From: an uncultured bacterium
GTDB taxonomy: Bacteria > UBA8481
DNA: 51,579 nt
NCBI GenBank assembly: GCA_964499705.1
Contig: CAZCME010000006.1
Location: forward strand, 186,001-237,579
Direction of reading: 5' to 3'
Shown: positions 19,313-28,092 of the stretch, in pieces
Layout: every line of letters begins with the position of its first letter
How positions within the stretch are numbered: position 1 is the stretch's first letter
Program-made: the position numbers and the translations under genes
The notes under the pieces: generated by a model
Told to the model about the DNA's origin: nothing
Databases searched by the model: none
The model's input: only the letters and a program-made list of their open reading frames with translations

Positions 19313-20530
19313 TTACCGTCTTCCTCGTCCCAGGAGCCTTCGCCGGATGGGCTTCTTGTAATCGGGGCGGGTTGTCTCGACGAGAAAACGGCATATCTTC
19401 GGCTCGAATCCAGGCACTTCCCTGCGCGGAATCGTTATACCCGTCTCCTTCTCGATGGACTTGACCACGTCCCAGTCCTCCACGGATACTAGCGAAACGG
19501 CATCGCCGTGAGCCGAAGCGCGGGCCGTGCGACCGATGCGATGAATATAATCCTCCACGTTGTCCGGCATGTCGTAGTTGATCACGTGGGAAATCGCCTC
19601 GATATCCAGACCTCGCGAGGCCACGTCGGTCGCGATGAGAATATTGGACCGCCGTTCCTTGAAGGCATCCAGCGCCGCTATCCTCGCCTTCTGATGCTTG
19701 TCGCCATGAATCACCTCGACCACCATGCCGGCCTGCTCGATGAGCGTTCCGAGCTTTTCCGCGTTCCGCTTTGTCCGCGTGAAGACGAGAACCTGTTCCA
19801 TCGTCTCCCCCTTCAGGAGATGCACCAAGAGGTCGTTCTTGCTACCCGGATCGACAGGATGGATGACCTGACGGACTTTCTCGACCGGCGTGGAGGAAGG
19901 CGCCACTTCCACGCGGACGGGATCGCGCATGAAATCGTTGGCCAGCCGCAGGATCTCGGGAGGAAGCGTGGCGGAAAAGAGAAGCGTCTGCCGTTCGCGC
20001 GCCAAGAGGCGCATGATGTGCCGGACATCGGGAATGAATCCCATATCAAGCATGCGATCGGCTTCGTCGAGTATCAGGATCTTGACGCTGGAAAGCTGCA
20101 GCACCCTCTGATGGTGAAGATCGAGCAGTCGGCCCGGAGTCGCGATGACGACATCGCATCCCTTCTTGATCGCCTTGATCTGCGGGCTCATCGGCATGCC
20201 ACCCACGATCACCGTGGACCGAAGTTTCGTGTTTCGGCCGTAGTTCTCCAGAAATTCCTGCACCTGGATGGCCAATTCGCGCGTGGGAGCAAGCACCAGC
20301 GCACGAGGATCGTGCTGAAACGTCTCATTTTTCAGCCGTTCCAGGACAGGCAGGCTGTAGGCGGCCGTCTTGCCCGTGCCGGTCTGCGCGCATCCGATCA
20401 CGTCTTTCCCCTCCAGCGCGGGCGGGATGGCTCCGATCTGGATCGGTGTCGGAGTCACGTAGCCATCTTCTGCCAGGGAAGAAAGAATCACGGAGGACAG
20501 GCCAAGAGCGTCAAATTGCGGTGTCATCAT
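19313..20530 (-). CDS. DEAD-box RNA helicase (RhlE-like)
   Basis: Q motif PTPIQ, AQTGTGKT, PTRELA, TPGRL, DEAD, SAT, RGLD, HRIGRT; start moved to MMTPQF. Confidence 0.95.
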   Translation of the reverse strand: MMTPQFDALGLSSVILSSLAEDGYVTPTPIQIGAIPPALEGKDVIGCAQTGTGKTAAYSLPVLERLKNETFQHDPRALVLAPTRELAIQVQEFLENYGRNTKLRSTVIVGGMPMSPQIKAIKKGCDVVIATPGRLLDLHHQRVLQLSSVKILILDEADRMLDMGFIPDVRHIMRLLARERQTLLFSATLPPEILRLANDFMRDPVRVEVAPSSTPVEKVRQVIHPVDPGSKNDLLVHLLKGETMEQVLVFTRTKRNAEKLGTLIEQAGMVVEVIHGDKHQKARIAALDAFKERRSNILIATDVASRGLDIEAISHVINYDMPDNVEDYIHRIGRTARASAHGDAVSLVSVEDWDVVKSIEKETGITIPRREVPGFEPKICRFLVETTRPDYKKPIRRRLLGRGRR

Positions 20531-20774
20531 CGAATCATCAGGGTGAGTAGAGAACCACGTTCCCGGTCCGTAGTCAATGCGAAACTGCTCGGCATCGCTT
20601 GGAAAAGAAGAAATCGTCCTGGCGCGGCAGAACGCGATCCGCCCTTCACGACAACTTCCATCAGGCATATTGAGCTTCGCGATCCAATCGCATACACTGG
20701 GATCATGATCCGCGGGGACGTCCAATCTCTTTTCCATCGCTGCATCCCTCGCGCGCTGCTCACTCGAGAGGCTC

Positions 20775-21761
20775 ATGCGTAAAATCTTTCGGTCCCCTTT
20801 CACGCGCATGGCCATTGTCCTGTTGCTGACAGCGGGAATTCTCTTCCTGATCCTTCAAAAGCGGGATCTCGCTCCCGGCCAGACCGCGACAGAACAGGCC
20901 GCGGTGCCCGAAGAAGGCGATGTCCAGGTTTCCGCGCCGCCGGACGGCGTAAGGGAGCTCGACTTCGGTCCCGCGCGATTGGTCCTCGATACCGGCGCGG
21001 AGATCCGCCTGACCAGTCCGAAGGTGACGATCGACAGCGAAGTCGTGCTCTTGAAAGGAAGGCTGACAGCCACAGTCCGTCCCCTGCAACGCGGCGAATC
21101 CTTCAAGGTAAGAACATTCAATATCACCGCGGGGGTGCGCGGAACGAAATTCACGGTCGCGATCATCGGCGGCATCGTCACGATCGTCCATGTGATCGAA
21201 GGCAGCGTCTGGATCGAAGCCGCGACCGGGAATCCCATCATGCTCTCCCCGGGCCAATCCGCTCATGCTCACGGCATGTCGGATCCGGAGATTATCGATT
21301 CCAGGGAGAAGAGCGACGCGAGCAACGACCTTTCCGCCCTCCTCGACAAGCCCGTCCTTCCGGATCCTAACACGGCTTCATCAACGTCCAGCACGGCCGG
21401 CGACATCCTGCAGGGCTCGGGTACCTGGAACAACTCGCTTGGATTCTCCGGTCCCATAACGCTCTCGATCGATCTGAAGATGGGCACATACACGGGACAG
21501 TTCCGAGGCGAAAACAAGACCGCCGGCGCGGCGACGGATCGGGCCGTAACGCTGGATGGCCGCTGCGGCGGCACGTTCAAGGGCACGCGATCATCCGGAA
21601 CGCTCGACGGCTGGGTCGAATTCTCCGGTACGGACGCCAAGACCGGGTTGCGCACGCCGGGCCTGCGGGGTCAGGCCAGCGGCTCCTTGAACGCGGGAAC
21701 CATCACGGGTACTTTCCAGGGCGCTCAGCAAAAAGGGGAATTCAAGCTGAACCTGAAATAG
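20775..21761 (+). CDS. FecR-domain membrane-anchored protein
   Basis: TM anchor; FKVRTFNITAGVRGTKFTV..VIEGSV FecR signature; Gly/Thr-rich beta C-terminal domain. Confidence 0.8.
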   Translation: MRKIFRSPFTRMAIVLLLTAGILFLILQKRDLAPGQTATEQAAVPEEGDVQVSAPPDGVRELDFGPARLVLDTGAEIRLTSPKVTIDSEVVLLKGRLTATVRPLQRGESFKVRTFNITAGVRGTKFTVAIIGGIVTIVHVIEGSVWIEAATGNPIMLSPGQSAHAHGMSDPEIIDSREKSDASNDLSALLDKPVLPDPNTASSTSSTAGDILQGSGTWNNSLGFSGPITLSIDLKMGTYTGQFRGENKTAGAATDRAVTLDGRCGGTFKGTRSSGTLDGWVEFSGTDAKTGLRTPGLRGQASGSLNAGTITGTFQGAQQKGEFKLNLK

Positions 21762-21842
21762 AGGTCCATGCTTTATTATGTTTTGTCCGCCGTCGCGTGC
21801 ACGGGAAATCCACAGGCAATGGAAGACGGGATCGAACTTTTC

Positions 21843-21871
21843 TTTACCTCGGCATCCATTTTCCATACGAT
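21843..21871 (+). promoter_or_regulatory. Sigma70-type promoter of the histone gene
   Basis: TTTACC(21843)-17 bp-TACGAT(21866); SD AAGGA at 21891. Confidence 0.6.
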
Positions 21872-21903
21872 CTTTTCAATATCACCACGAAAGGAATCGG
21901 ATC

Positions 21904-22179
21904 ATGGCAGATGTAAGCGCAAGCGCAGCGAAGGATCATGTGTTAAAGGGAGCGGGCGACGTCGACAGGATGAGCAAGGACGCAGTGAACCTGGCTCGGG
22001 AGATGGCGCATTTGTATCTCGAAAAGCTCGGAGCCGCCGCGGCGGACGCGGCCAAGCAGGCGGGTCGGAAGACCATCATGCCGCCGGATCTGCACGCCGG
22101 CCAGCGGACGATGATGGGTGGAGCGGCATCGACGCCCGCATCCAGCCCCGCATCGGGAGAATCCCCCTCGGTCATGTAG
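21904..22179 (+). CDS. Histone-fold protein (archaeal HMf-like), 91 aa, with a C-terminal Ser/Pro/Ala tail
   Basis: MADVSASAAKDHVLKGAGDVDRMSKDA...AAKQAGRKTIMPPDL aligns by eye to HMfB (..KDAGAERVSDDA..LARHAGRKTIKAEDI); SD and ATG at 21904. Confidence 0.88.
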   Translation: MADVSASAAKDHVLKGAGDVDRMSKDAVNLAREMAHLYLEKLGAAAADAAKQAGRKTIMPPDLHAGQRTMMGGAASTPASSPASGESPSVM

Positions 22180-22187
22180 CCCACATT

Positions 22188-22211
22188 CCTTGCCGGCGTC
22201 AGCCGGCAAGG
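22188..22211. terminator. GC-rich hairpin between the convergent histone and glpE genes
   Basis: ccttgccggc-gtca-gccggcaagg, perfect 10-bp stem; no clear U-tract. Confidence 0.5.
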
Positions 22212-22510
22212 TACCGGCTGCGCCACTCCTCGAATCCGCCGTTCATGCTCGACACCTGCTCGAACCCCTGTTCGGCCAGCCAGGCCGCCGCATTCCGGCT
22301 CGAGTTGCCGTGATAACAATACACGAGCACGGGTTTTTGCCTGTCCGTATGCCGCAGGAACTCCTCGACCGTGGCGTCGTTCAAATGAACGGCGCCATCG
22401 ATGTGCGCCTCTTCGTAGGATCCCGGATCCCGGATATCCACAATGGTGCAGGTTCCCGCTTCGATCGCCTTCTTCGCATCCTCGATTTCGACCTGGTTGA
22501 ATGTTCCCAT
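22199..22510 (-). CDS. glpE: Thiosulfate sulfurtransferase (rhodanese)
   Basis: VDIRD..HIDGA..YCYHGNSS..AAWLAEQGF..SMNGGFEEW. Confidence 0.93.
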   Translation of the reverse strand: MGTFNQVEIEDAKKAIEAGTCTIVDIRDPGSYEEAHIDGAVHLNDATVEEFLRHTDRQKPVLVYCYHGNSSRNAAAWLAEQGFEQVSSMNGGFEEWRSRYLAG

Positions 22511-22524
22511 GATGTTCTCCTTTC

Positions 22525-23013
22525 CTAGAGTGGCAGCGGTCTGCCGTACTCGATCTTATCCGTGAGTCGTTCGAATGAATTGTGAATCACACTTTTCAGT
22601 TTGAGATACACGAAAAGCAGAACGTCGAGCGTGCAGGTTTCGCCCTCCCGTTCCCAGGTCACATGGATTCGATTCGCCACATGAAGATAGGAGCCCTCCC
22701 GCCATTGTTTCAGGGACATGGCAGCGTATGCTCCGAGCCCCAGCGCCGTCCTTACCGGATCGAATTCACCTGTCGCGCGGAGCCGGCGGATCAAGTGGTC
22801 GAGGATGAGGAGCCCTTCCCGGCCCGGAGGCGGCAAGTCCATGGCCCTGGCCGTCTCCAACGCTTCCCGTTCGATCCGATCCGCGTCCCACCGCGCCGAT
22901 TCCGCCTCCCACACGGCCTTTTCATCGCGAACTGATTTCGCCCAGTTGCGCAGGAAGAGGGCGAAAAGGAGCAGGAACGCCAATAAAAAAGCAAGGAGAA
23001 GGTTCTCGGCCAC
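22525..23013 (-). CDS. Hypothetical membrane-anchored protein
   Basis: GTG start, strongly hydrophobic N-terminal helix; 14 nt upstream of glpE. Confidence 0.6.
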   Translation of the reverse strand: MAENLLLAFLLAFLLLFALFLRNWAKSVRDEKAVWEAESARWDADRIEREALETARAMDLPPPGREGLLILDHLIRRLRATGEFDPVRTALGLGAYAAMSLKQWREGSYLHVANRIHVTWEREGETCTLDVLLFVYLKLKSVIHNSFERLTDKIEYGRPLPL

Positions 23014-23111
23014 GCCGCCAGATTACAGGAAAAGCATCCCCGATTGAATCCTCCTTGCTGACTTTCGCCGCCAGCCTTGACATACTGCTCAGGATTCGAT
23101 TCTCTACTCCC

Positions 23112-23747
23112 ATGGGGCTTCCTGACGGCCATTCCAGTTCAAATACACCGCGCCCTCCCGCCACGGGTCTGCGGATGCCTGCCGGCGTTACGGGATTCCA
23201 AACCGGGGTCCGCTCCAAGGAAACAATCTACGACTATTCCAAGGTCTTCGCCCGGTTCGGCAATCTCGTCACTCTCCTCTGTATACTGACCGTCGGTGGA
23301 CTTCACCTGTGGACGGAATATGTCCATCGCGAGCGGGAATCGGACTACAACGCCGCGTCCCTGGAACGCGCTTCCCTCCAGTCGCAGCTCGCGGCATTTG
23401 AGATGGAACGCAACAGGGGGGACGAAGCCGCTCGCACTCTCGGACCGCTTGGTCTCGGCATTCCGCCGGTGGCGCCATCCGTCATCCTTGAATCCTTGCG
23501 AGATCGCTTGACGGGACTGGGATTGGTCATGGTCTCCTATGTCCCCGCCTCGGACAATTCAGGGAAATCCACGATCAACATGGAGGTCACCGCTTCCTCG
23601 AGTATCGCCCTGGCTCAGGCGGTTGCCCGACTCGGCGAGAGCCCGTTCCGGAATCCCACGGTTTCCACCATGGAAGATGGGCCCGGAGGCCTGACTGCAC
23701 GTATCACGCTGGAAATCTCAGGGATCTCGGAAACTACGGGATCATGA
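23112..23747 (+). CDS. PilN/GspL-like bitopic membrane protein
   Basis: TM helix, coiled coil, then ferredoxin-like periplasmic pattern (..LGESPFRNPTV..ARITLEI); TTGACA at 23077; context. Confidence 0.55.
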   Translation: MGLPDGHSSSNTPRPPATGLRMPAGVTGFQTGVRSKETIYDYSKVFARFGNLVTLLCILTVGGLHLWTEYVHRERESDYNAASLERASLQSQLAAFEMERNRGDEAARTLGPLGLGIPPVAPSVILESLRDRLTGLGLVMVSYVPASDNSGKSTINMEVTASSSIALAQAVARLGESPFRNPTVSTMEDGPGGLTARITLEISGISETTGS

Positions 23748-24586
23748 AGCGGCCCGGCCTTGTACTTCTTCTGCTGCTCACCACATTCGCGTATTATCGA
23801 TGGTACCATCTTCCTGAAGCGAGCGCACTGCAGGCCAAGGCGGTCGAAACAACGGCCATGAAAGACGAACTCAACCGACTGCGGGCATCCATCGCTTCCA
23901 CAAAGCATGAGGGTTCCCCGGGACAACCAATGGATCTTCCGGAGCCGCGCCATCCCTCATTCATGATTTCGCGACTTGCGACGTCCGCGGCTCCCGCGCT
24001 ACCCGCTTCCGCCCGGCTCACAACCATATCGACATCGGGAACGAGGGATGTCGGCGGGCTCACGTGCGAGGACATGAACCTGGCCGGCAGCGGGCGGCTC
24101 GACGAGATCATCGCGTTTTTTCGGAATGTCGAGTCCATCCGGCCTCAAATCGGCATCCGTTCGTGGTCTCTGTCCGTCTCCAGCCCAACCGGCGACAGGC
24201 GTGCCGGAGACAGATCCGTGTGGAACGCATATCAGATGCAAATCTCCTATATCAAGAGCGGGTCCACTCTTGCGGGCGATACTTGGTCAGCCACAACCAT
24301 CCCTTCGACGGTGACCGCGTTAAATGCCGCGCCGGTCGCAGATGCACGACCGTCCCGGACGAAACGCGTCACACCGCCGGCGGTAACGCTGGAGGCACTT
24401 CCCGGCTCCGGAGCCCGCATCGAAGGAATCCTCATGAACAGCCAGGGGCCGTCCGCGATGATCGGCGGACGGCTGGTGCGGCAGGGAGCCATGGTCGATG
24501 GTCTCAAGTTCATGGGCGTCGAGAATCACCTGGCGAAATTTCGCGGAGAAGGCGGCAGAATGATACTCATAGCGTGGGCAAGATGA
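23744..24586 (+). CDS. PilO/GspM-like protein with a C-terminal PilP/GspC-like domain
   Basis: TM, coiled coil, SGRLDEIIAFFRNVE (PilO-like), then RIEGILM..SAMIGGRLVRQGAMVDG (PilP/GspC-like). Confidence 0.6.
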   Translation: MKRPGLVLLLLLTTFAYYRWYHLPEASALQAKAVETTAMKDELNRLRASIASTKHEGSPGQPMDLPEPRHPSFMISRLATSAAPALPASARLTTISTSGTRDVGGLTCEDMNLAGSGRLDEIIAFFRNVESIRPQIGIRSWSLSVSSPTGDRRAGDRSVWNAYQMQISYIKSGSTLAGDTWSATTIPSTVTALNAAPVADARPSRTKRVTPPAVTLEALPGSGARIEGILMNSQGPSAMIGGRLVRQGAMVDGLKFMGVENHLAKFRGEGGRMILIAWAR

Positions 24587-25653
24587 TGCGCTGTTTCGTG
24601 GCGCGCGACGGCGCTGCTTCATCCCGGCCTGCATCGATCCTCGTCTCGACGATGGCCCTTGTTTTGCTCTTTCAAGCAGGAATCTCATCGGCGGCCACCG
24701 GACTCCGCGCCATCCGGCTCGAAGCCGTCGAAACATCCGTCGATTCCGGTGCCGTTCTCGTGCGCCTGCGCGCGGACGGCCCGATCGCGCCGCGGATCCA
24801 TTGGCTCCCTCAAACAGGTCGCATGCTTCTTGTGATGGACCTGCCCGGTATCGACGTCAGGAACGTGAAGCTCGCTTCGCCGTTCCAGGCACCGATTCTC
24901 CACATGGGTCTTTCGCAATGGCGGACGCAGCCGCTCACCGGACGGTTGGCAGTGCATCTGCCCGCGAAGCGGGCTTGGACCATCGATACGACCGGTCACG
25001 ATGCGGTCATCACGATCCTGGATGAGATTCCTCCCGAAGCGAGCCAGGCGACCAATCCCCGCATGAAGCCCGCTCCAAGACCCGGTCGTCCCTTGCGCGG
25101 CGAGACGAGGACGACCGCCGCGAAGTCGATTCCGCCGGCGGCGCCCGCCGTCATCCCGGTTGCCGCTGTCGCTTCTCCCGCGCCCCCGTCCGACTCGCAC
25201 CCTTCCGTCGACAAGCGCCTCGTCACGCTGCTCTTTCGCGAAGCGGAACTGACCAATGTGCTCCGCGTCATCGGGGAGCAGAATCACCTGAACCTCATTC
25301 TCCCGCCGGATGTGCATGGTACCGTCACGGTCTTTCTCGAAGGAATTCCCGTCGAAGAAGCGCTCCGGAAGATCCTCTTCGTTCACGGATACGGATACGT
25401 AATGCAGGACGACGTGCTGCTGATCGTTCCGGGAGTGAACGACCAGGGGAATTATTCCATTTACCGGCCCGGCGCTCCGGCCGCCGCGATCTGCCAGACG
25501 CTCGAAAAGCTCGTGCCGCTTCCGGGCAAGGTCTTCTTCGACGGAGCGACGAACTCCATCATTCTTTACGCTCCCCAGCCGGGCATGAAGCCGGTCTTCG
25601 AATCGATTTACCAGGGGCTCCTGGCCGCTCATACGACTCCAAGCGGGAACTGA
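24583..25653 (+). CDS. PilQ-like N-terminal protein (AMIN-like + STN/N0 + N1-like) lacking the secretin domain
   Basis: Signal peptide; LVTLLFREAELTNVLRVIGEQNHLNLIL..VHGTVTVFLEGIPVEEALRKIL; KVFFDGATNSIIL; stops before any barrel. Confidence 0.7.
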   Translation: MMRCFVARDGAASSRPASILVSTMALVLLFQAGISSAATGLRAIRLEAVETSVDSGAVLVRLRADGPIAPRIHWLPQTGRMLLVMDLPGIDVRNVKLASPFQAPILHMGLSQWRTQPLTGRLAVHLPAKRAWTIDTTGHDAVITILDEIPPEASQATNPRMKPAPRPGRPLRGETRTTAAKSIPPAAPAVIPVAAVASPAPPSDSHPSVDKRLVTLLFREAELTNVLRVIGEQNHLNLILPPDVHGTVTVFLEGIPVEEALRKILFVHGYGYVMQDDVLLIVPGVNDQGNYSIYRPGAPAAAICQTLEKLVPLPGKVFFDGATNSIILYAPQPGMKPVFESIYQGLLAAHTTPSGN

Positions 25654-28092
25654 TTGGACCAGGATGCCAAGGCCGGATTTCTCCGGCAGGTCGCGTTCTT
25701 TCGCGACTTCGAGCATAGCGCGATAGATCATCTCGCCGCCGCGGCTCTCTTGACGACGTTCGACGCGGGACAGGCGATCATCAAGGAAGGCGACATCGAC
25801 TCCCGCCTCTTCATCCTCGTCTCCGGCCACGTCGGCATCTACCGCATGGGCGCAGACGGCGCGGAAAATGTCATCACCTACTTCAATCCTCCGCACGTCG
25901 TCGGCGAATTTTCCCTCTTCGATGACGCGCCGCGTTCCGCGTCGGTCAAGGCGCTCGATCGCGCCGAGGCGCTCGTCGTGCGCAAGGAAGATCTGATGGA
26001 AGTGATCCTGAAGCATCCCCAGTCGACCTTGGGAATCTTCCGGGCGCTGACGCGGCACATCCGGGAATCGACCGACATCATCAACGCGATGATGTCGCAG
26101 CAGGGAGAATCCGGCGCCCAGAGTCCGCTGGTCGTGGGCGGACTAGGAGCAGGCCGGGTGCAGTCGGCGGAATGGAGCCGTGCGGAAGACGAGGCGTTCG
26201 GCGTCTACCTCGTGTCGGAAGGGCTTCTCGAGCGGCCGCAGATGATCGTCGCGATGAACCGCGCGCTCGACGCGGGCTCGCCGCTGCCGCAGGTCCTCAT
26301 CCGGATGAAGATGATCGATTCCGTCGCGCTCTCCGCCGCGGAGAGCCGATTTCTTCGGATGAAGAAGGCGCGCGCGGGAGATCCATCGGTATTGCTGGAG
26401 CGATTGGAGAAGGCAGGATTTCTCGTTCCGCGCCGCGCCGAGGAACTGCGCGCCGCGAAGGTCGATTCGATCATCGACACGCTGAAGGCGGAGCTCTCCA
26501 TCACGGATGAGGACGTCCTGAACATCATGGACCTGCGGGACATGTCCTTCGCGCGCGTGAACGAGGATGCTCTGCACGCCGACGCCGTGAAGCTGATTCC
26601 CGCCGCGCTCGCGGACGAGCACCGCATCATTCCGCTGCAGAAGATCGGCAACACGCTCTGCCTCGGCATGATCTCCCCGTCCGACGCCTACGCCCGGGAA
26701 ATGGCCTTCCTCGCGACGGGCCTCACGATCGAGCCGTGCCTGCTGATTCGCTCCAACTTCAAGGAACTGCGCGAGGCGATGCGCCGGATGACGGAGGACA
26801 AGGGGCGGAGCACGTCGCGGTCGCGCGCCAGCATCGAGATCCTCCGGGATCTCGCGGGACTTGTGACGCGGCAGGAGGTGGGCGGATCGCAGGCGATACC
26901 GCTCTTGGAAGGCATCCTGCGTTCCGCGATCCGCACCCGCGCCTCGGACATTCACATCGAGCCGCAGGAAGGAAACACGCGCGTGCGATTCCGGATCGAC
27001 GGCATCCTGAACGACATGCTGACGCTGCCGGCCGAGACGCATGTCCGCGTCGTCAGTTCCCTGAAGGCCGCATCGGAGATGGACATCGCGAACCGGCTCG
27101 TGCCGCAGGACGGCAAGACCGTCTATGACAGCGCGGAGGGCAAGTACATGATCCGCGTGTCCACGCTGCCGACGGCGCTCGGAGAAAAAGTCGTGATGCG
27201 TCTGCACAAGGAATCCGACGTGACGCTGGGGTTGAGGGACCTCGGCCTGACGGAGAAGCAGCATGGCCTTTTGACGCGCCTCTCGAAATCACCCTACGGC
27301 ATGGTGCTCGTCACCGGTCCCGTCGGATCGGGCAAGACCACGACGCTGTACTCGATCCTCCATTCGATCGACGTTCTCCGCAACAACATCGTGACGATCG
27401 AGGATCCGATCGAATACGAGCTGCCGGGCCTCAATCACGTCGCGGTCAATCCGAAGGCGGGGCTGACCTACGTCGCGGGACTGCGGTCGATCCTGCGGCA
27501 GGATCCGGATGTCATCATGCTCGGGGAGATCCGCGACAAGGAGACGGGCCAGATCGCGGTCCGCGCGGCCTGCACCGGCGTCCTGATGCTGACGACCCTT
27601 CATACGAATGACGCGCCGTCGGCGGTCACGGCGTTGCTGCACATGGGCGTCGAGCCGTTCTTCATCGTGAATGCGCTGCTGGGCGTCGTGGCTCAACGGC
27701 TGGTGCGCGTCGTCTGCGGCGAGTGCGCGGAGACGTACCAGCCCGACACGGCGCTGATCGCGCAGATGGGACTGGACCCGTCCAAGGAATATCACTTCAA
27801 GCGCCCGGTCGGATGCCCGACCTGCGGACACTCGGGATACCGCGGCCGGATCGGAATCTTCGAGATCATGATGATGACGCCGAAGCTGCGGGACCTCGTG
27901 CTGAAGGAAGCGCCCGAATCGGAGATTCGTGCCGTCGCGATGGAGGAAGGCATGATCTCCCTGCGGCGGTCGGCCGTCATCAAGGTCGTGGAAGGCGTTT
28001 CGACCGTCGAAGAACTTCTGCGAAAGACGGCGGAGGTCGAGGAGAGCGTGAGCCTCGATAAGGAAAGCTCAGGGCTTCCGCAGAAGAAATAG
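25654..28092 (+). CDS. PilB/GspE-family assembly ATPase with an N-terminal cyclic-nucleotide-binding domain
   Basis: N-terminal IIKEGD..LFILVSGHV..VGEFSLFDDAPRSASVKA; ASDIHIEP, PQDG, GPVGSGKTT, TIEDPIE, LRQDPDVIMLGEIRD, TLHTND, CGEC/CPTC. Confidence 0.92.
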   Translation: MDQDAKAGFLRQVAFFRDFEHSAIDHLAAAALLTTFDAGQAIIKEGDIDSRLFILVSGHVGIYRMGADGAENVITYFNPPHVVGEFSLFDDAPRSASVKALDRAEALVVRKEDLMEVILKHPQSTLGIFRALTRHIRESTDIINAMMSQQGESGAQSPLVVGGLGAGRVQSAEWSRAEDEAFGVYLVSEGLLERPQMIVAMNRALDAGSPLPQVLIRMKMIDSVALSAAESRFLRMKKARAGDPSVLLERLEKAGFLVPRRAEELRAAKVDSIIDTLKAELSITDEDVLNIMDLRDMSFARVNEDALHADAVKLIPAALADEHRIIPLQKIGNTLCLGMISPSDAYAREMAFLATGLTIEPCLLIRSNFKELREAMRRMTEDKGRSTSRSRASIEILRDLAGLVTRQEVGGSQAIPLLEGILRSAIRTRASDIHIEPQEGNTRVRFRIDGILNDMLTLPAETHVRVVSSLKAASEMDIANRLVPQDGKTVYDSAEGKYMIRVSTLPTALGEKVVMRLHKESDVTLGLRDLGLTEKQHGLLTRLSKSPYGMVLVTGPVGSGKTTTLYSILHSIDVLRNNIVTIEDPIEYELPGLNHVAVNPKAGLTYVAGLRSILRQDPDVIMLGEIRDKETGQIAVRAACTGVLMLTTLHTNDAPSAVTALLHMGVEPFFIVNALLGVVAQRLVRVVCGECAETYQPDTALIAQMGLDPSKEYHFKRPVGCPTCGHSGYRGRIGIFEIMMMTPKLRDLVLKEAPESEIRAVAMEEGMISLRRSAVIKVVEGVSTVEELLRKTAEVEESVSLDKESSGLPQKK

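What the first reader, a model, noticed from the sequence alone, without database searches (positions are those of the whole stretch)
21843..22211. Stand-alone archaeal-type histone in a diderm bacterium, with a Ser/Pro-rich C-terminal tail
Seen: the true start is ATG 21904 (SD AAGGA), hidden inside the listed 133-aa ORF, and gives a 91-aa protein. It has its own promoter (TTTACC-17-TACGAT) and a downstream hairpin. Established: manual alignment to Methanothermus HMfB, ungapped from R22 to D62 with a +3 offset, gives R22=R19, R55-K56-T57=R52-K53-T54 and D62=D59 (L1/L2 DNA contacts and the R-D clamp). The 33-residue R-to-R spacing equals HMfB's, so alpha2 is full length, unlike the shortened alpha2 of Bdellovibrio Bd0055. 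The HMfB tetramer-interface residues L46/H49/L62 are here A49/Q52/A65. Net charge is about 0 (10 K+R, 10 D+E), and a ~20-aa tail GGAASTPASSPASGESPSVM follows. Inference: a bacterial histone of archaeal geometry that may not form classical hypernucleosomes. It may be dimeric, need a partner encoded elsewhere, or use another interface, and the S/T-P tail could be a modification site.
Basis: partly seen in the sequence, partly recalled or inferred. Interest (0 to 1): 0.88.

Follow-up and report, generated by a model that had tools for sequence, protein, structure and literature searches.

The report
Full-length histone in a bacterial phylum
This small stand-alone gene encodes a real histone protein built like the DNA-wrapping histones of archaea, and every sequenced member of one small uncultured bacterial phylum keeps it, but it lacks the residues that let archaeal histones stack into long fibres.

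Summary
ATG 21904 opens a 91-aa protein that passes Pfam's histone model (PF00808, 35.2 bits against a cut-off of 21.4). Its AlphaFold2 model (pLDDT 90.3) superposes on all of HMfB (5t5k_A: Z 9.2, rmsd 1.8 A, 67 of 67 residues). Alpha2 has 28 residues and alpha3 is full length, so this is not the shortened fold described as diagnostic of bacterial histones. R22, R55-K56-T57 and D62 are conserved in 23-24 of 24 family members. The HMfB tetramer positions 46/49/62 are variable here and never His. HMfB R10 is His in 23 of 24.

The family is rare. Only 8 of 1.84 billion representatives score E<=1e-10. All 5 species genomes of the host's GTDB phylum carry one copy, beside two HU genes each. NCBI labels two of these genomes Candidatus Hydrogenedentota/Hydrogenedentes.

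My best reading is a homodimeric DNA-binding nucleoid protein that cannot form classical hypernucleosomes. DNA binding and expression are untested. I rate it a new variant of a known kind, interest about 0.6.

The parts
21843..21871 (+). Weak sigma-70-like promoter: TTTACC, 17-nt spacer, TACGAT, with the -10 ending 32 nt before the ATG
   Evidence: Read from the sequence. It matches 8 of 12 consensus positions and is not reported by the scan tool (0 sites). A similar TTGnnn-17/18-TAnnAT match ends 28-33 nt before the ATG in 4 of 5 orthologous upstream regions.
21891..21895 (+). Shine-Dalgarno AAGGA, 8 nt upstream of the start codon
   Evidence: All 5 orthologues show a GGAG/AGGA-type motif just upstream of the conserved ATG (printout).
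21904..22179 (+). Histone gene: 91 codons plus TAG stop
   Evidence: PF00808 35.2 bits, PF00125 29.1 bits. The N-terminus is conserved in 24 of 24 homologues.
21919..22128 (+). Histone fold, residues 6-75: alpha1 6-17, L1 18-24, alpha2 25-52, L2 53-59, alpha3 60-75
   Evidence: AF2 model with mean pLDDT 90.3. VIA-align to HMfB 5t5k_A gives Z 9.2, rmsd 1.8 A, 67 of 67 residues.
22117..22176 (+). C-terminal Ala/Ser/Pro/Gly-rich tail without basic residues (residues 72-91)
   Evidence: pLDDT is 69-72 over the last 20-30 residues. Family tails hold 3 K/R among 365 residues and are mostly A, S, P and G.
22188..22211 (.). Perfect 10-bp GC-rich hairpin between the convergent histone and rhodanese genes; no U-tract
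   Evidence: -33.9 kcal/mol, z -5.56, 0 of 200 shuffles fold as well. It is not reported as a terminator.

Best explanation
The gene encodes a genuine single-domain histone that forms a symmetric handshake homodimer. I infer that it binds DNA without sequence specificity through the two L1-L2 sites: sprocket Arg22, Lys56 and Thr57, held by the Arg55-Asp62 clamp. A central site would be formed by the strictly conserved N-terminus and alpha1 (Lys10, His12, Lys15). The fold has the full archaeal ('nucleosomal') dimensions, so each dimer should bend DNA around itself as an HMfB dimer does. The residues of the four-helix-bundle dimer-dimer interface are not kept, so dimers should not polymerise into tetramers or hypernucleosomes. 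The protein would then act as a bending or coating nucleoid-associated protein alongside HU. The acidic-to-neutral disordered tail may tune DNA affinity.

Shown here: the fold, its geometry, the residue conservation, the predicted dimer, conservation across the phylum, and purifying selection.

Inferred only: DNA binding, absence of tetramers, abundance, and the role of the tail.
For: Fold. PF00808 scores 35.2 bits and PF00125 scores 29.1, both above their cut-offs. The best PDB sequence matches to the family profile are all full-length histones: the M. kandleri doublet 1f1e (2.5e-10), Asgard histone 9qv5 (1.8e-5) and HMfB (6.6e-5). The alignments are ungapped from R22 onward.

Geometry. The AF2 model (pLDDT 90.3) has alpha2 at 25-52 (28 residues) and alpha3 at 60-75. 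It superposes on HMfB 5t5k_A at Z 9.2, rmsd 1.8 A, 67 of 67 residues, and on 1a7w at Z 9.1, rmsd 1.9 A, 68 of 68.

Conservation in 24 family members. K10, R22, K56, T57 and M59 are kept in 24 of 24. H12, R55 and D62 are kept in 23 of 24. Positions 49, 52 and 65 (HMfB 46, 49, 62) are variable, with 7, 8 and 9 different residues, and position 52 is never His. Henneman et al. 2018 (PMC6136690, passages read) make L46/H49/D59/L62 the first requirement for hypernucleosomes. Hocher et al. 2023 (PMC10627809, passages read) show that restoring these residues lets Bd0055 wrap DNA.

Dimer (ESMFold2, four copies of residues 1-76 with a 24-row alignment). The ipSAE score is 0.88 and the best of 3 controls is 0.00. 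In the tool's calibration this mark was reached by 20 of 30 proteins solved as pairs of one chain and by 1 of 23 solved as single chains. Those counts hold only roughly here, because I used my own alignment and four copies. The runs agree in at least 77% of contacts and the partner's pLDDT is at least 85. The confident contacts are the classical antiparallel alpha2 handshake (35-35, 38-38, 39-13, 60-27). Because histone dimers are solved structures, this pass may reflect likeness to them.

Biology. All 5 of 5 genomes of the GTDB phylum have one copy at E 1e-39 to 1e-42. dN/dS is 0.12-0.29 in the 6 of 10 pairs where dS is not saturated, and gene GC tracks host GC from 45% to 71%. The gene has its own SD and a promoter-like site at a conserved position.
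Against: There is no DNA-binding, abundance or expression data of any kind.

The fold core is only weakly basic: net charge is -1 to +5 across 24 members and +1 in this protein. The tails carry almost no basic residues.

One of the two minor-groove arginines of HMfB (R10) is His in 23 of 24 members.

All 5 genomes also carry two HU genes, so a histone is not needed as the main nucleoid protein.

The score against NCBIfam's archaeal histone model is 24.7 bits, below its cut-off of 50.

The argument against tetramers rests on residue identity. Another interface is not excluded.
Confidence: 0.55

Rival explanations
1. The protein is a DNA-wrapping histone after all. Dimers would assemble on DNA into tetramers or longer fibres through a non-canonical interface, for example the unusually conserved N-terminal MAD[VI]S.SAAK segment or small-residue (Ala) packing of alpha3. 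This would give bacterial nucleosome-like particles.
For: The alpha2 and alpha3 helices are full length and the whole HMfB chain superposes. D62 (HMfB D59) and A66 are kept in 23 of 24 members, and position 65 is Ala in 13 of 24, so there is a conserved small-residue face on alpha3. The first 10 residues are the best-conserved part of the family. Hocher et al. 2023 propose that the N-terminus of Bd0055 mediates dimer-dimer contacts along DNA (passage read).
Against: The residues equivalent to L46 and H49 are variable and often charged. Published work links loss of H49 to loss of stable tetramers (passages read).
Confidence: 0.17
2. The protein is a histone-fold protein that is not a general nucleoid protein. 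It could be a homodimeric transcription regulator or a protein-protein scaffold, analogous to NF-Y/NC2/TAF histone folds, present at low copy number.
For: Net charge is near neutral and the tail is acidic to neutral. R10 is replaced by His. Two HU genes are present in each genome. PF00808 also covers NF-YB/NC2-type factors, and NF-YB chains appear among the PDB hits at about 4e-4. Hocher et al. note that bacterial histone folds may have roles outside DNA binding (passage read).
Against: There is no second histone-fold gene that could supply an NF-YC- or NC2-like partner. There is no conserved neighbour gene or operon in the 5 genomes. The L1-L2 DNA-contact residues are invariant, which is hard to explain without DNA binding.
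Confidence: 0.2
3. The gene is an artefact: an archaeal contaminant contig, or a recently transferred and decaying gene without function.
For: Histone-fold genes are patchy in bacteria, and some are suspected contaminants or transient transfers (Hocher 2023, passage read). The nearest look-alike clusters are mostly archaeal.
Against: The gene lies inside a contig of at least 237 kb among bacterial genes: DEAD-box helicase, FecR-domain protein, rhodanese and a PilB-type ATPase. It is present in 5 of 5 genomes of the phylum on contigs of 12-43 kb. dN/dS is 0.12-0.29 and its GC is adapted to each host.
Confidence: 0.02

Closest known systems
Archaeal nucleosomal (HMf-type) histones: HMfB/HMfA (PDB 1a7w, 5t5k, 1b67), HPhA (1ku5), Asgard HHoB (9qv5), and the second fold of M. 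kandleri HMk (1f1e)
   Same: Both are single histone folds of about 70 residues with a full-length alpha2 (28 residues here) and a multi-turn alpha3. The whole HMfB chain superposes (Z 9.2, rmsd 1.8 A, 67 of 67 residues). The sprocket Arg (R19=R22), the RKT motif of L2 and the R52-D59 clamp are conserved. A homodimer is predicted.
   Different: The host is bacterial. The tetramer residues L46, H49 and L62 are not kept, and R10 is His. Loop L1 is one residue longer. There is a strictly conserved N-terminal segment without the archaeal prolines, plus a 5-26-residue non-basic tail. The protein scores below the NCBIfam archaeal-histone cut-off (24.7 against 50 bits).
Bacterial 'alpha3-truncated' histones: HBb/Bd0055 of Bdellovibrio (bacterial dimer class) and HLp of Leptospira (face-to-face tetramer class)
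   Same: Both are bacterial, stand-alone, single-fold histones. Both have the RKT..D motif and no His at the HMfB-49 position. A dimer is the largest confidently predicted assembly, as for the 'bacterial dimer' class (Schwab 2024, passages read; Hocher 2023, passage read).
   Different: Those histones have an alpha2 that is 4-5 residues shorter and an alpha3 of only 3-4 residues, and their R19 equivalent is not conserved (passages read). This family has the full alpha2 and alpha3 and an invariant R22. HBb and HLp are not among the 60 best PDB profile hits of 496.
Full-length histones of uncultured Myxococcota
   Same: They are bacterial singlet histones with archaeal-type helix lengths. The Atlas cluster is among the nearest by features (0.90) and by structure (TM 0.86).
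   Different: They form a different sequence family. No shared short words were found with this protein. They are about 70 residues long without the tail, and come from a different phylum.
Schwab et al. 2024 category 'undefined' prokaryotic histones
   Same: [quoted passage not shown] This family would fit that description.
   Different: I could not check whether any member is in their tables, because supplements are closed. The paper states that nucleosomal histones occur exclusively in archaea (passage read).

Membership tests
Histone fold superfamily (Pfam PF00808 CBFD_NFYB_HMF / PF00125 Histone) | Score above Pfam's gathering cut-off | tested here: met
   PF00808 scores 35.2 bits against 21.4, and PF00125 scores 29.1 against 26.4.
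Histone fold superfamily (Pfam PF00808 CBFD_NFYB_HMF / PF00125 Histone) | Helix-loop-long helix-loop-helix architecture | tested here: met
   The AF2 model has helices at 6-17, 25-52 and 60-75, with mean pLDDT 90.3.
Histone fold superfamily (Pfam PF00808 CBFD_NFYB_HMF / PF00125 Histone) | Handshake dimer | tested here: met
   Prediction only. ipSAE is 0.88 and the best of 3 controls is 0.00. The mark was reached by 20 of 30 solved homo-pairs and by 1 of 23 single chains in the tool's calibration, which holds only roughly here. The runs agree in at least 77% of contacts and the partner's pLDDT is at least 85. The pass may reflect likeness to solved histone dimers.
Archaeal nucleosomal (HMf-type) histones | Full-length alpha2 and an alpha3 of about 10 residues | tested here: met
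   Alpha2 has 28 residues and alpha3 spans 60-75. HMfB superposes over 67 of 67 residues at rmsd 1.8 A, Z 9.2. The sequence alignment is ungapped from R22 to alpha3.
Archaeal nucleosomal (HMf-type) histones | DNA-anchoring R19, the L2 RKT motif and the R52-D59 clamp | tested here: met
   R22 24/24, R55 23/24, K56 24/24, T57 24/24, D62 23/24. Equivalences are from the HMMER alignments.
Archaeal nucleosomal (HMf-type) histones | Minor-groove arginine R10 | tested here: not met
   The aligned residue is H12, which is His in 23 of 24 members and Gln in 1.
Archaeal nucleosomal (HMf-type) histones | Dimer-dimer (four-helix-bundle) residues L46, H49, D59, L62 (Henneman 2018 criterion 1) | tested here: not met
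   Only D59 (D62) is kept. Position 49 is A/S/E/T/F/R/N. Position 52 is Q/K/A/S/G/R/N/E and never His. Position 65 is Ala in 13 of 24 and otherwise varied. The criterion comes from PMC6136690 passages.
Archaeal nucleosomal (HMf-type) histones | Small residue (G16) at the stacking loop | tested here: inconclusive
   G16 is kept in 22/24 and G18 in 20/24, but L1 is one residue longer, so the equivalent position is ambiguous.
Archaeal nucleosomal (HMf-type) histones | NCBIfam archaea_histone (NF043032) cut-off | tested here: not met
   24.7 bits against a cut-off of 50.
Alpha3-truncated bacterial histones (bacterial dimer HBb, face-to-face HLp) | Alpha3 of 3-4 residues and alpha2 shorter by 4-5 residues | tested here: not met
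   Model helices. The definition is from Schwab 2024 passages and Hocher 2023 passages.
DUF1931 pseudodimeric (doublet) histones | Two folds in one chain; PF09123 above cut-off | tested here: not met
   This is a single fold. PF09123 scores 13.5 bits against 21.8, and no hit is above the cut-off in any of the 5 genomes.
NF-Y/NC2-type heterodimeric histone-fold transcription factors | A second, complementary histone-fold subunit in the genome | tested here: not met
   The 96%-complete genome has one PF00808 hit above the cut-off. The two others score 14.4 and 11.3 bits, and the first lies in an alternative frame of a 319-aa ORF.
Nucleoid-associated protein (functional class) | Non-specific DNA binding and high abundance | not testable with these tools
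   No DNA modelling tool was available, and no usable RNA or protein data were found.

The most novel reading that the evidence does not exclude
This would be a third, structurally 'nucleosomal' kind of bacterial histone, inherited vertically through a whole phylum. Despite lacking the archaeal four-helix-bundle residues, it would assemble on DNA through its own invariant N-terminal segment into wrapped, nucleosome-like particles. [quoted passage not shown]
Probability: 0.12. Interest if true: 0.85.

Novelty: new variant of a known kind. Interest (0 to 1): 0.62.

Why it matters
The published picture of bacterial histones rests on two proteins, HBb and HLp. [quoted passage not shown]

This family breaks both statements at the level of fold geometry. 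It keeps the sprocket arginine that other bacterial histones lack, and it is fixed in every known genome of a phylum-level lineage.

It is also a natural experiment. It is a full-size histone dimer without the tetramer interface, the mirror image of the engineered Bd0055 tetramerisation mutant. Recombinant study would therefore show directly how much of DNA wrapping depends on fold size and how much on dimer-dimer contacts.

There are limits to the claim. The organisms are uncultured, nothing is known about expression, and similar full-length histones have already been noted by this scan in Myxococcota. This is one more family of an emerging type, not a unique case.

Tried and rejected
Expression. 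The look-up of sequencing runs listed no RNA holder. It listed 8 runs, all DNA; 7 hold at least part of the stretch, from 3 studies. This says nothing about expression.

Tetramer test. I sent four copies to complex prediction, hoping to see whether a dimer-dimer interface appears. The confident contacts named were only between copies 3 and 4, which form the handshake dimer. Residues 49, 52, 65, 66 and 69 were not named. The tool states that unnamed residues are merely uncertain, so this is not evidence against tetramers.

Synteny. BLASTP of ORFs from the four orthologous loci (6 kb flanks where the contig allowed) against window ORFs at 12-32 kb found no shared neighbour. The only other matches were a PilB-like ATPase in L021 (47% identity), an opposite-strand ORF overlapping it, and an opposite-strand ORF overlapping the L019 histone gene. 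There is no operon or partner clue.

Second histone. The sub-threshold PF00808 and PF09123 hits in the genome were rejected as noise.

Origin. The nearest non-family hits are mostly unnamed metagenome proteins. One 74-aa relative is labelled Planctomycetes MAG and one is labelled archaeon. Atlas look-alikes are mostly archaeal. No donor can be named, and I built no tree because the rows lack taxon labels.

Foldseek against the PDB gave no match at E<=0.001. The best was 8.7e-3, although probability was 1.00 and all hits were histones. VIA-align was used for the quantitative comparison. Z values near 9 are in the range the tool warns can be common for helical proteins, so the weight lies on full-length coverage and rmsd, together with the sequence evidence.

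Literature. A search for 'Hydrogenedent' plus 'histone fold' found 0 papers. HBb and HLp chains did not appear in the listed PDB rows, which is inconclusive. Supplementary tables of Schwab 2024 and Hocher 2023 could list members of this family, but I could not open them.

Earlier notes of this scan. Look-ups by place and by sequence returned nothing for this protein.

Full report
**1. What is in the sequence**

The 133-aa ORF at 21778-22179 contains an internal ATG at 21904, preceded by AAGGA at 21891-21895. Translation from 21904 gives a 91-aa protein, P0002, ending at TAG 22177-22179.

The start is not a guess. All 24 aligned homologues begin with the same segment, M-[AS]-[DE]-[VI]-[SA]-x-S-[AV]-A-K. 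The four orthologous genes fetched from related genomes all have an ATG at that point preceded by a GGAG/AGGA-type motif. A 79-aa version starting at GTG 21940, which is stored in the protein collection for this window (P0003), therefore looks like a mis-called start.

The consensus scan, which needs 9 of 12, reports no site in 21500-22600. What gives it some weight is position. In 4 of 5 orthologous upstream regions the best sigma-70-like match is TTGnnn/TTTACC, then 17-18 nt, then TAnnAT, with the -10 ending 28-33 nt before the ATG. In the fifth (G004) it ends 66 nt before. In G000 and G003 another site ties at the same score.

The downstream hairpin at 22188-22211 is a perfect 10-bp stem. 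The 61-nt stretch that contains it folds at -33.9 kcal/mol with z -5.56, and 0 of 200 shuffles fold as well. It has no U-tract and overlaps the end of the convergent rhodanese gene at 22199-22510 on the minus strand.

**2. It is a histone fold of full archaeal dimensions**

- P0002 passes Pfam's gathering cut-offs for PF00808 (35.2 against 21.4 bits) and PF00125 (29.1 against 26.4).
- A profile of six family members was searched against all PDB sequences. The best hits are the second fold of the M. kandleri doublet histone 1f1e (2.5e-10), Asgard histone 9qv5/9qv6 (about 2e-5), HMfB (6.6e-5), HMfA (1.2e-4) and HPhA (3.3e-4), followed by eukaryotic H3/H2B and NF-YB.
- The printed alignments have one extra residue in loop L1 and are otherwise ungapped through L2 and alpha3.
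- An AlphaFold2 model built on a 46-row alignment has mean pLDDT 90.3, with helices at 6-17, 25-52 (28 residues) and 60-75. The tail has pLDDT around 70.
- Foldseek ranks only histones: H3, HMfA and HHoB, at probability 1.00 and E about 1e-2.
- VIA-align superposes the entire HMfB chain: 5t5k_A at Z 9.2, rmsd 1.8 A, 67 of 67 residues, and 1a7w at Z 9.1, rmsd 1.9 A, 68 of 68.

The published definition of the bacterial 'alpha3' histones is an alpha2 shorter by 4-5 residues and an alpha3 of 3-4 residues (Schwab et al. 2024, PMC11390915, passages read). Hocher et al. 2023 (PMC10627809, passages read) call the shorter alpha2 'diagnostic of bacterial singlet histones' and note that R19 is not conserved in them. 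This protein meets neither description.

**3. The family and its distribution**

- An exhaustive HMMER search of 1.84 billion representative proteins found 160 hits at E<=1e-3, but only 8 at E<=1e-10.
- The word-indexed search of 5.8 billion clusters found 21 family members at E<=1.9e-24. There is then a gap to a 74-aa protein labelled Planctomycetes MAG (1.7e-10) and one labelled archaeon (7e-6).
- A pattern scan of one genome for each of 185,579 species confirmed only four loci besides the window's own genome. Two of these are titled Candidatus Hydrogenedentota/Hydrogenedentes MAGs.
- In the genome collection the host's phylum contains just five species genomes, in two families of one order. 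All 5 of 5 carry exactly one copy, at E 1.8e-39 to 2.0e-42.
- None of 36 genomes sampled from other lineages matched.
- The own genome (4.67 Mb, 96% complete) has no second histone-fold hit above the cut-off. It has no DUF1931 doublet, and the best sub-threshold hit lies in an alternative frame of a 319-aa ORF.
- Every one of the five genomes also has two HU genes.
- The neighbourhood is not conserved.
- Over the 70-codon core, dN/dS is 0.12-0.29 in the 6 of 10 genome pairs where dS is not saturated. dS is 1.1-1.9 in those pairs, so the ratios are rough. The gene's GC follows each host, from 45% to 71%.
- The host is a diderm: it has Omp85.

Together these results exclude contamination or a recent, decaying transfer.

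**4. What is conserved and what is not (24 members)**

- Invariant: K10, R22, K56, T57, M59.
- Kept in 23 of 24: H12, S24, R32, R55, D62, A66.
- The L1-L2 DNA-contact set and the R-D clamp are therefore under strong constraint.
- The residue aligned to HMfB R10, one of the two minor-groove arginines named by Henneman et al. 2018 (PMC6136690, passages read), is His.
- Henneman et al. list four residues as the first requirement for hypernucleosomes: L46, H49, D59 and L62. Only D59 is kept. Positions 49, 52 and 65 carry 7, 8 and 9 different residues, and His never occurs at position 52.
- Hocher et al. showed that introducing the archaeal residues at the equivalent positions lets Bd0055 wrap DNA (passage read). 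The missing interface is therefore functionally meaningful.
- The core is weakly basic (net -1 to +5, and +1 here).
- The tails are 5-26 residues long and contain 3 K/R among 365 residues. They are dominated by A, S, P and G.
However, by my reading of the alignment, 13 of 24 tails end in Q, QA or QG.

**5. Assembly**

I sent four copies of residues 1-76, with the 24-row alignment, to complex prediction.

- The ipSAE score is 0.88, against 0.00 for the best of 3 controls.
- In the tool's calibration this mark was reached by 20 of 30 proteins solved as pairs of one chain and by 1 of 23 solved as single chains. Those counts hold only roughly here, because I used my own alignment and four copies instead of two.
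- The runs agree in at least 77% of contacts, and the partner's pLDDT is at least 85.
- The confident contacts are the classical antiparallel alpha2 handshake with one other copy, and they include residues 1-5 of the conserved N-terminus.
- Histone dimers are solved structures, so the pass may be from likeness to them.
- No confident contact to a second dimer was named.

**6. Interpretation**

- Best reading (0.55): a homodimeric, non-specific DNA-binding nucleoid protein with the footprint of an archaeal histone dimer but without the means to polymerise. It would work beside HU.
- Rival 1 (0.17): it does oligomerise on DNA through another interface. The invariant N-terminus and the Ala-rich face of alpha3 are candidates.
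- Rival 2 (0.20): it is a low-abundance regulator or scaffold and not a chromatin protein. This is suggested by the near-neutral charge, His at the R10 position, the acidic tail and the presence of HU. It is weakened by the invariant DNA-contact residues and by the absence of any partner or operon.
- Rival 3 (0.02): it is an artefact or a decaying transfer.

**7. Comparison with what is known, and novelty**

By geometry and sequence profile the nearest relatives are archaeal nucleosomal histones. By host and by loss of H49 it resembles the bacterial histones. It fails defining features of both groups (see the membership table).

Schwab et al. state that nucleosomal histones are exclusive to archaea. 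They file histones with only dimer predictions and no special monomer feature as 'undefined' (passages read). This family would fall there if it was included. I could not open their supplements.

A search for 'Hydrogenedent' with 'histone fold' found no paper.

Earlier notes of this scan describe full-length histones in uncultured Myxococcota. An Atlas cluster dominated by Myxococcota is among this protein's nearest look-alikes, but it shares no short words with it. Full-length bacterial histones are thus an emerging, unstudied type, and this is a new, phylum-wide family of it. I rate it a new variant of a known kind, interest 0.62.

Noticed in passing
window 25654-28092 (+): An 812-aa PilB/GspE-type secretion ATPase (T2SSE, 2.3e-118) carries an N-terminal cyclic-nucleotide-binding domain (residues 35-120, 7.9e-21) ahead of an MshEN domain. 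This combination suggests control of the pilus or secretion motor by two nucleotide signals.
   Followed up: no
window 23055-25653 (+): Between the histone gene and the ATPase lie ORFs without any Pfam or NCBIfam family (23055-23747, 23744-24586) and an ORF with a PilQ/HofQ-like secretin N-terminal segment (24064-25653; TIGR02515 37 bits, far below its cut-off). This is probably a divergent type IV pilus or T2SS assembly cluster.
   Followed up: partly
family alignment A4 (24 proteins; not in the window's own copy): By my reading of the alignment, 13 of 24 family members end their otherwise unconserved tails in Q, QA or QG, usually preceded by P or A. This may be a short C-terminal linear motif. 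The window's protein ends differently (…PSVM).
   Followed up: no
window 21940 (GTG): The protein collection holds a 79-aa version of this gene that starts at the internal GTG (P0003). The conserved N-terminus shows that this automated start is 12 codons too late.
   Followed up: yes
window 19313-20815 (-) and 20775-21761 (+): Upstream of the histone gene lie a DEAD-box helicase with an N-terminal extension of about 120 residues before the DEAD domain, and a 328-aa FecR-domain protein. Neither is kept next to the histone gene in the other four genomes.
   Followed up: partly
P0012 (549 aa, representative library): One of the strongest non-family hits (E 9.3e-13) is a 549-aa protein made of repeated stretches with four histone-fold matches. 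By eye it looks like eukaryotic core and linker histone sequence, and so probably an assembly or gene-call chimera; I did not test this. It is not a relative of interest.
   Followed up: no
P0173 and relatives (P0174-P0177, P0015): A second small group of 72-76-aa singlet histones (N-terminus MADLPNAAVKR…) aligns to the family profile without a shortened alpha2. Its one named member is labelled Planctomycetes MAG. This may be another bacterial full-length histone family.
   Followed up: partly
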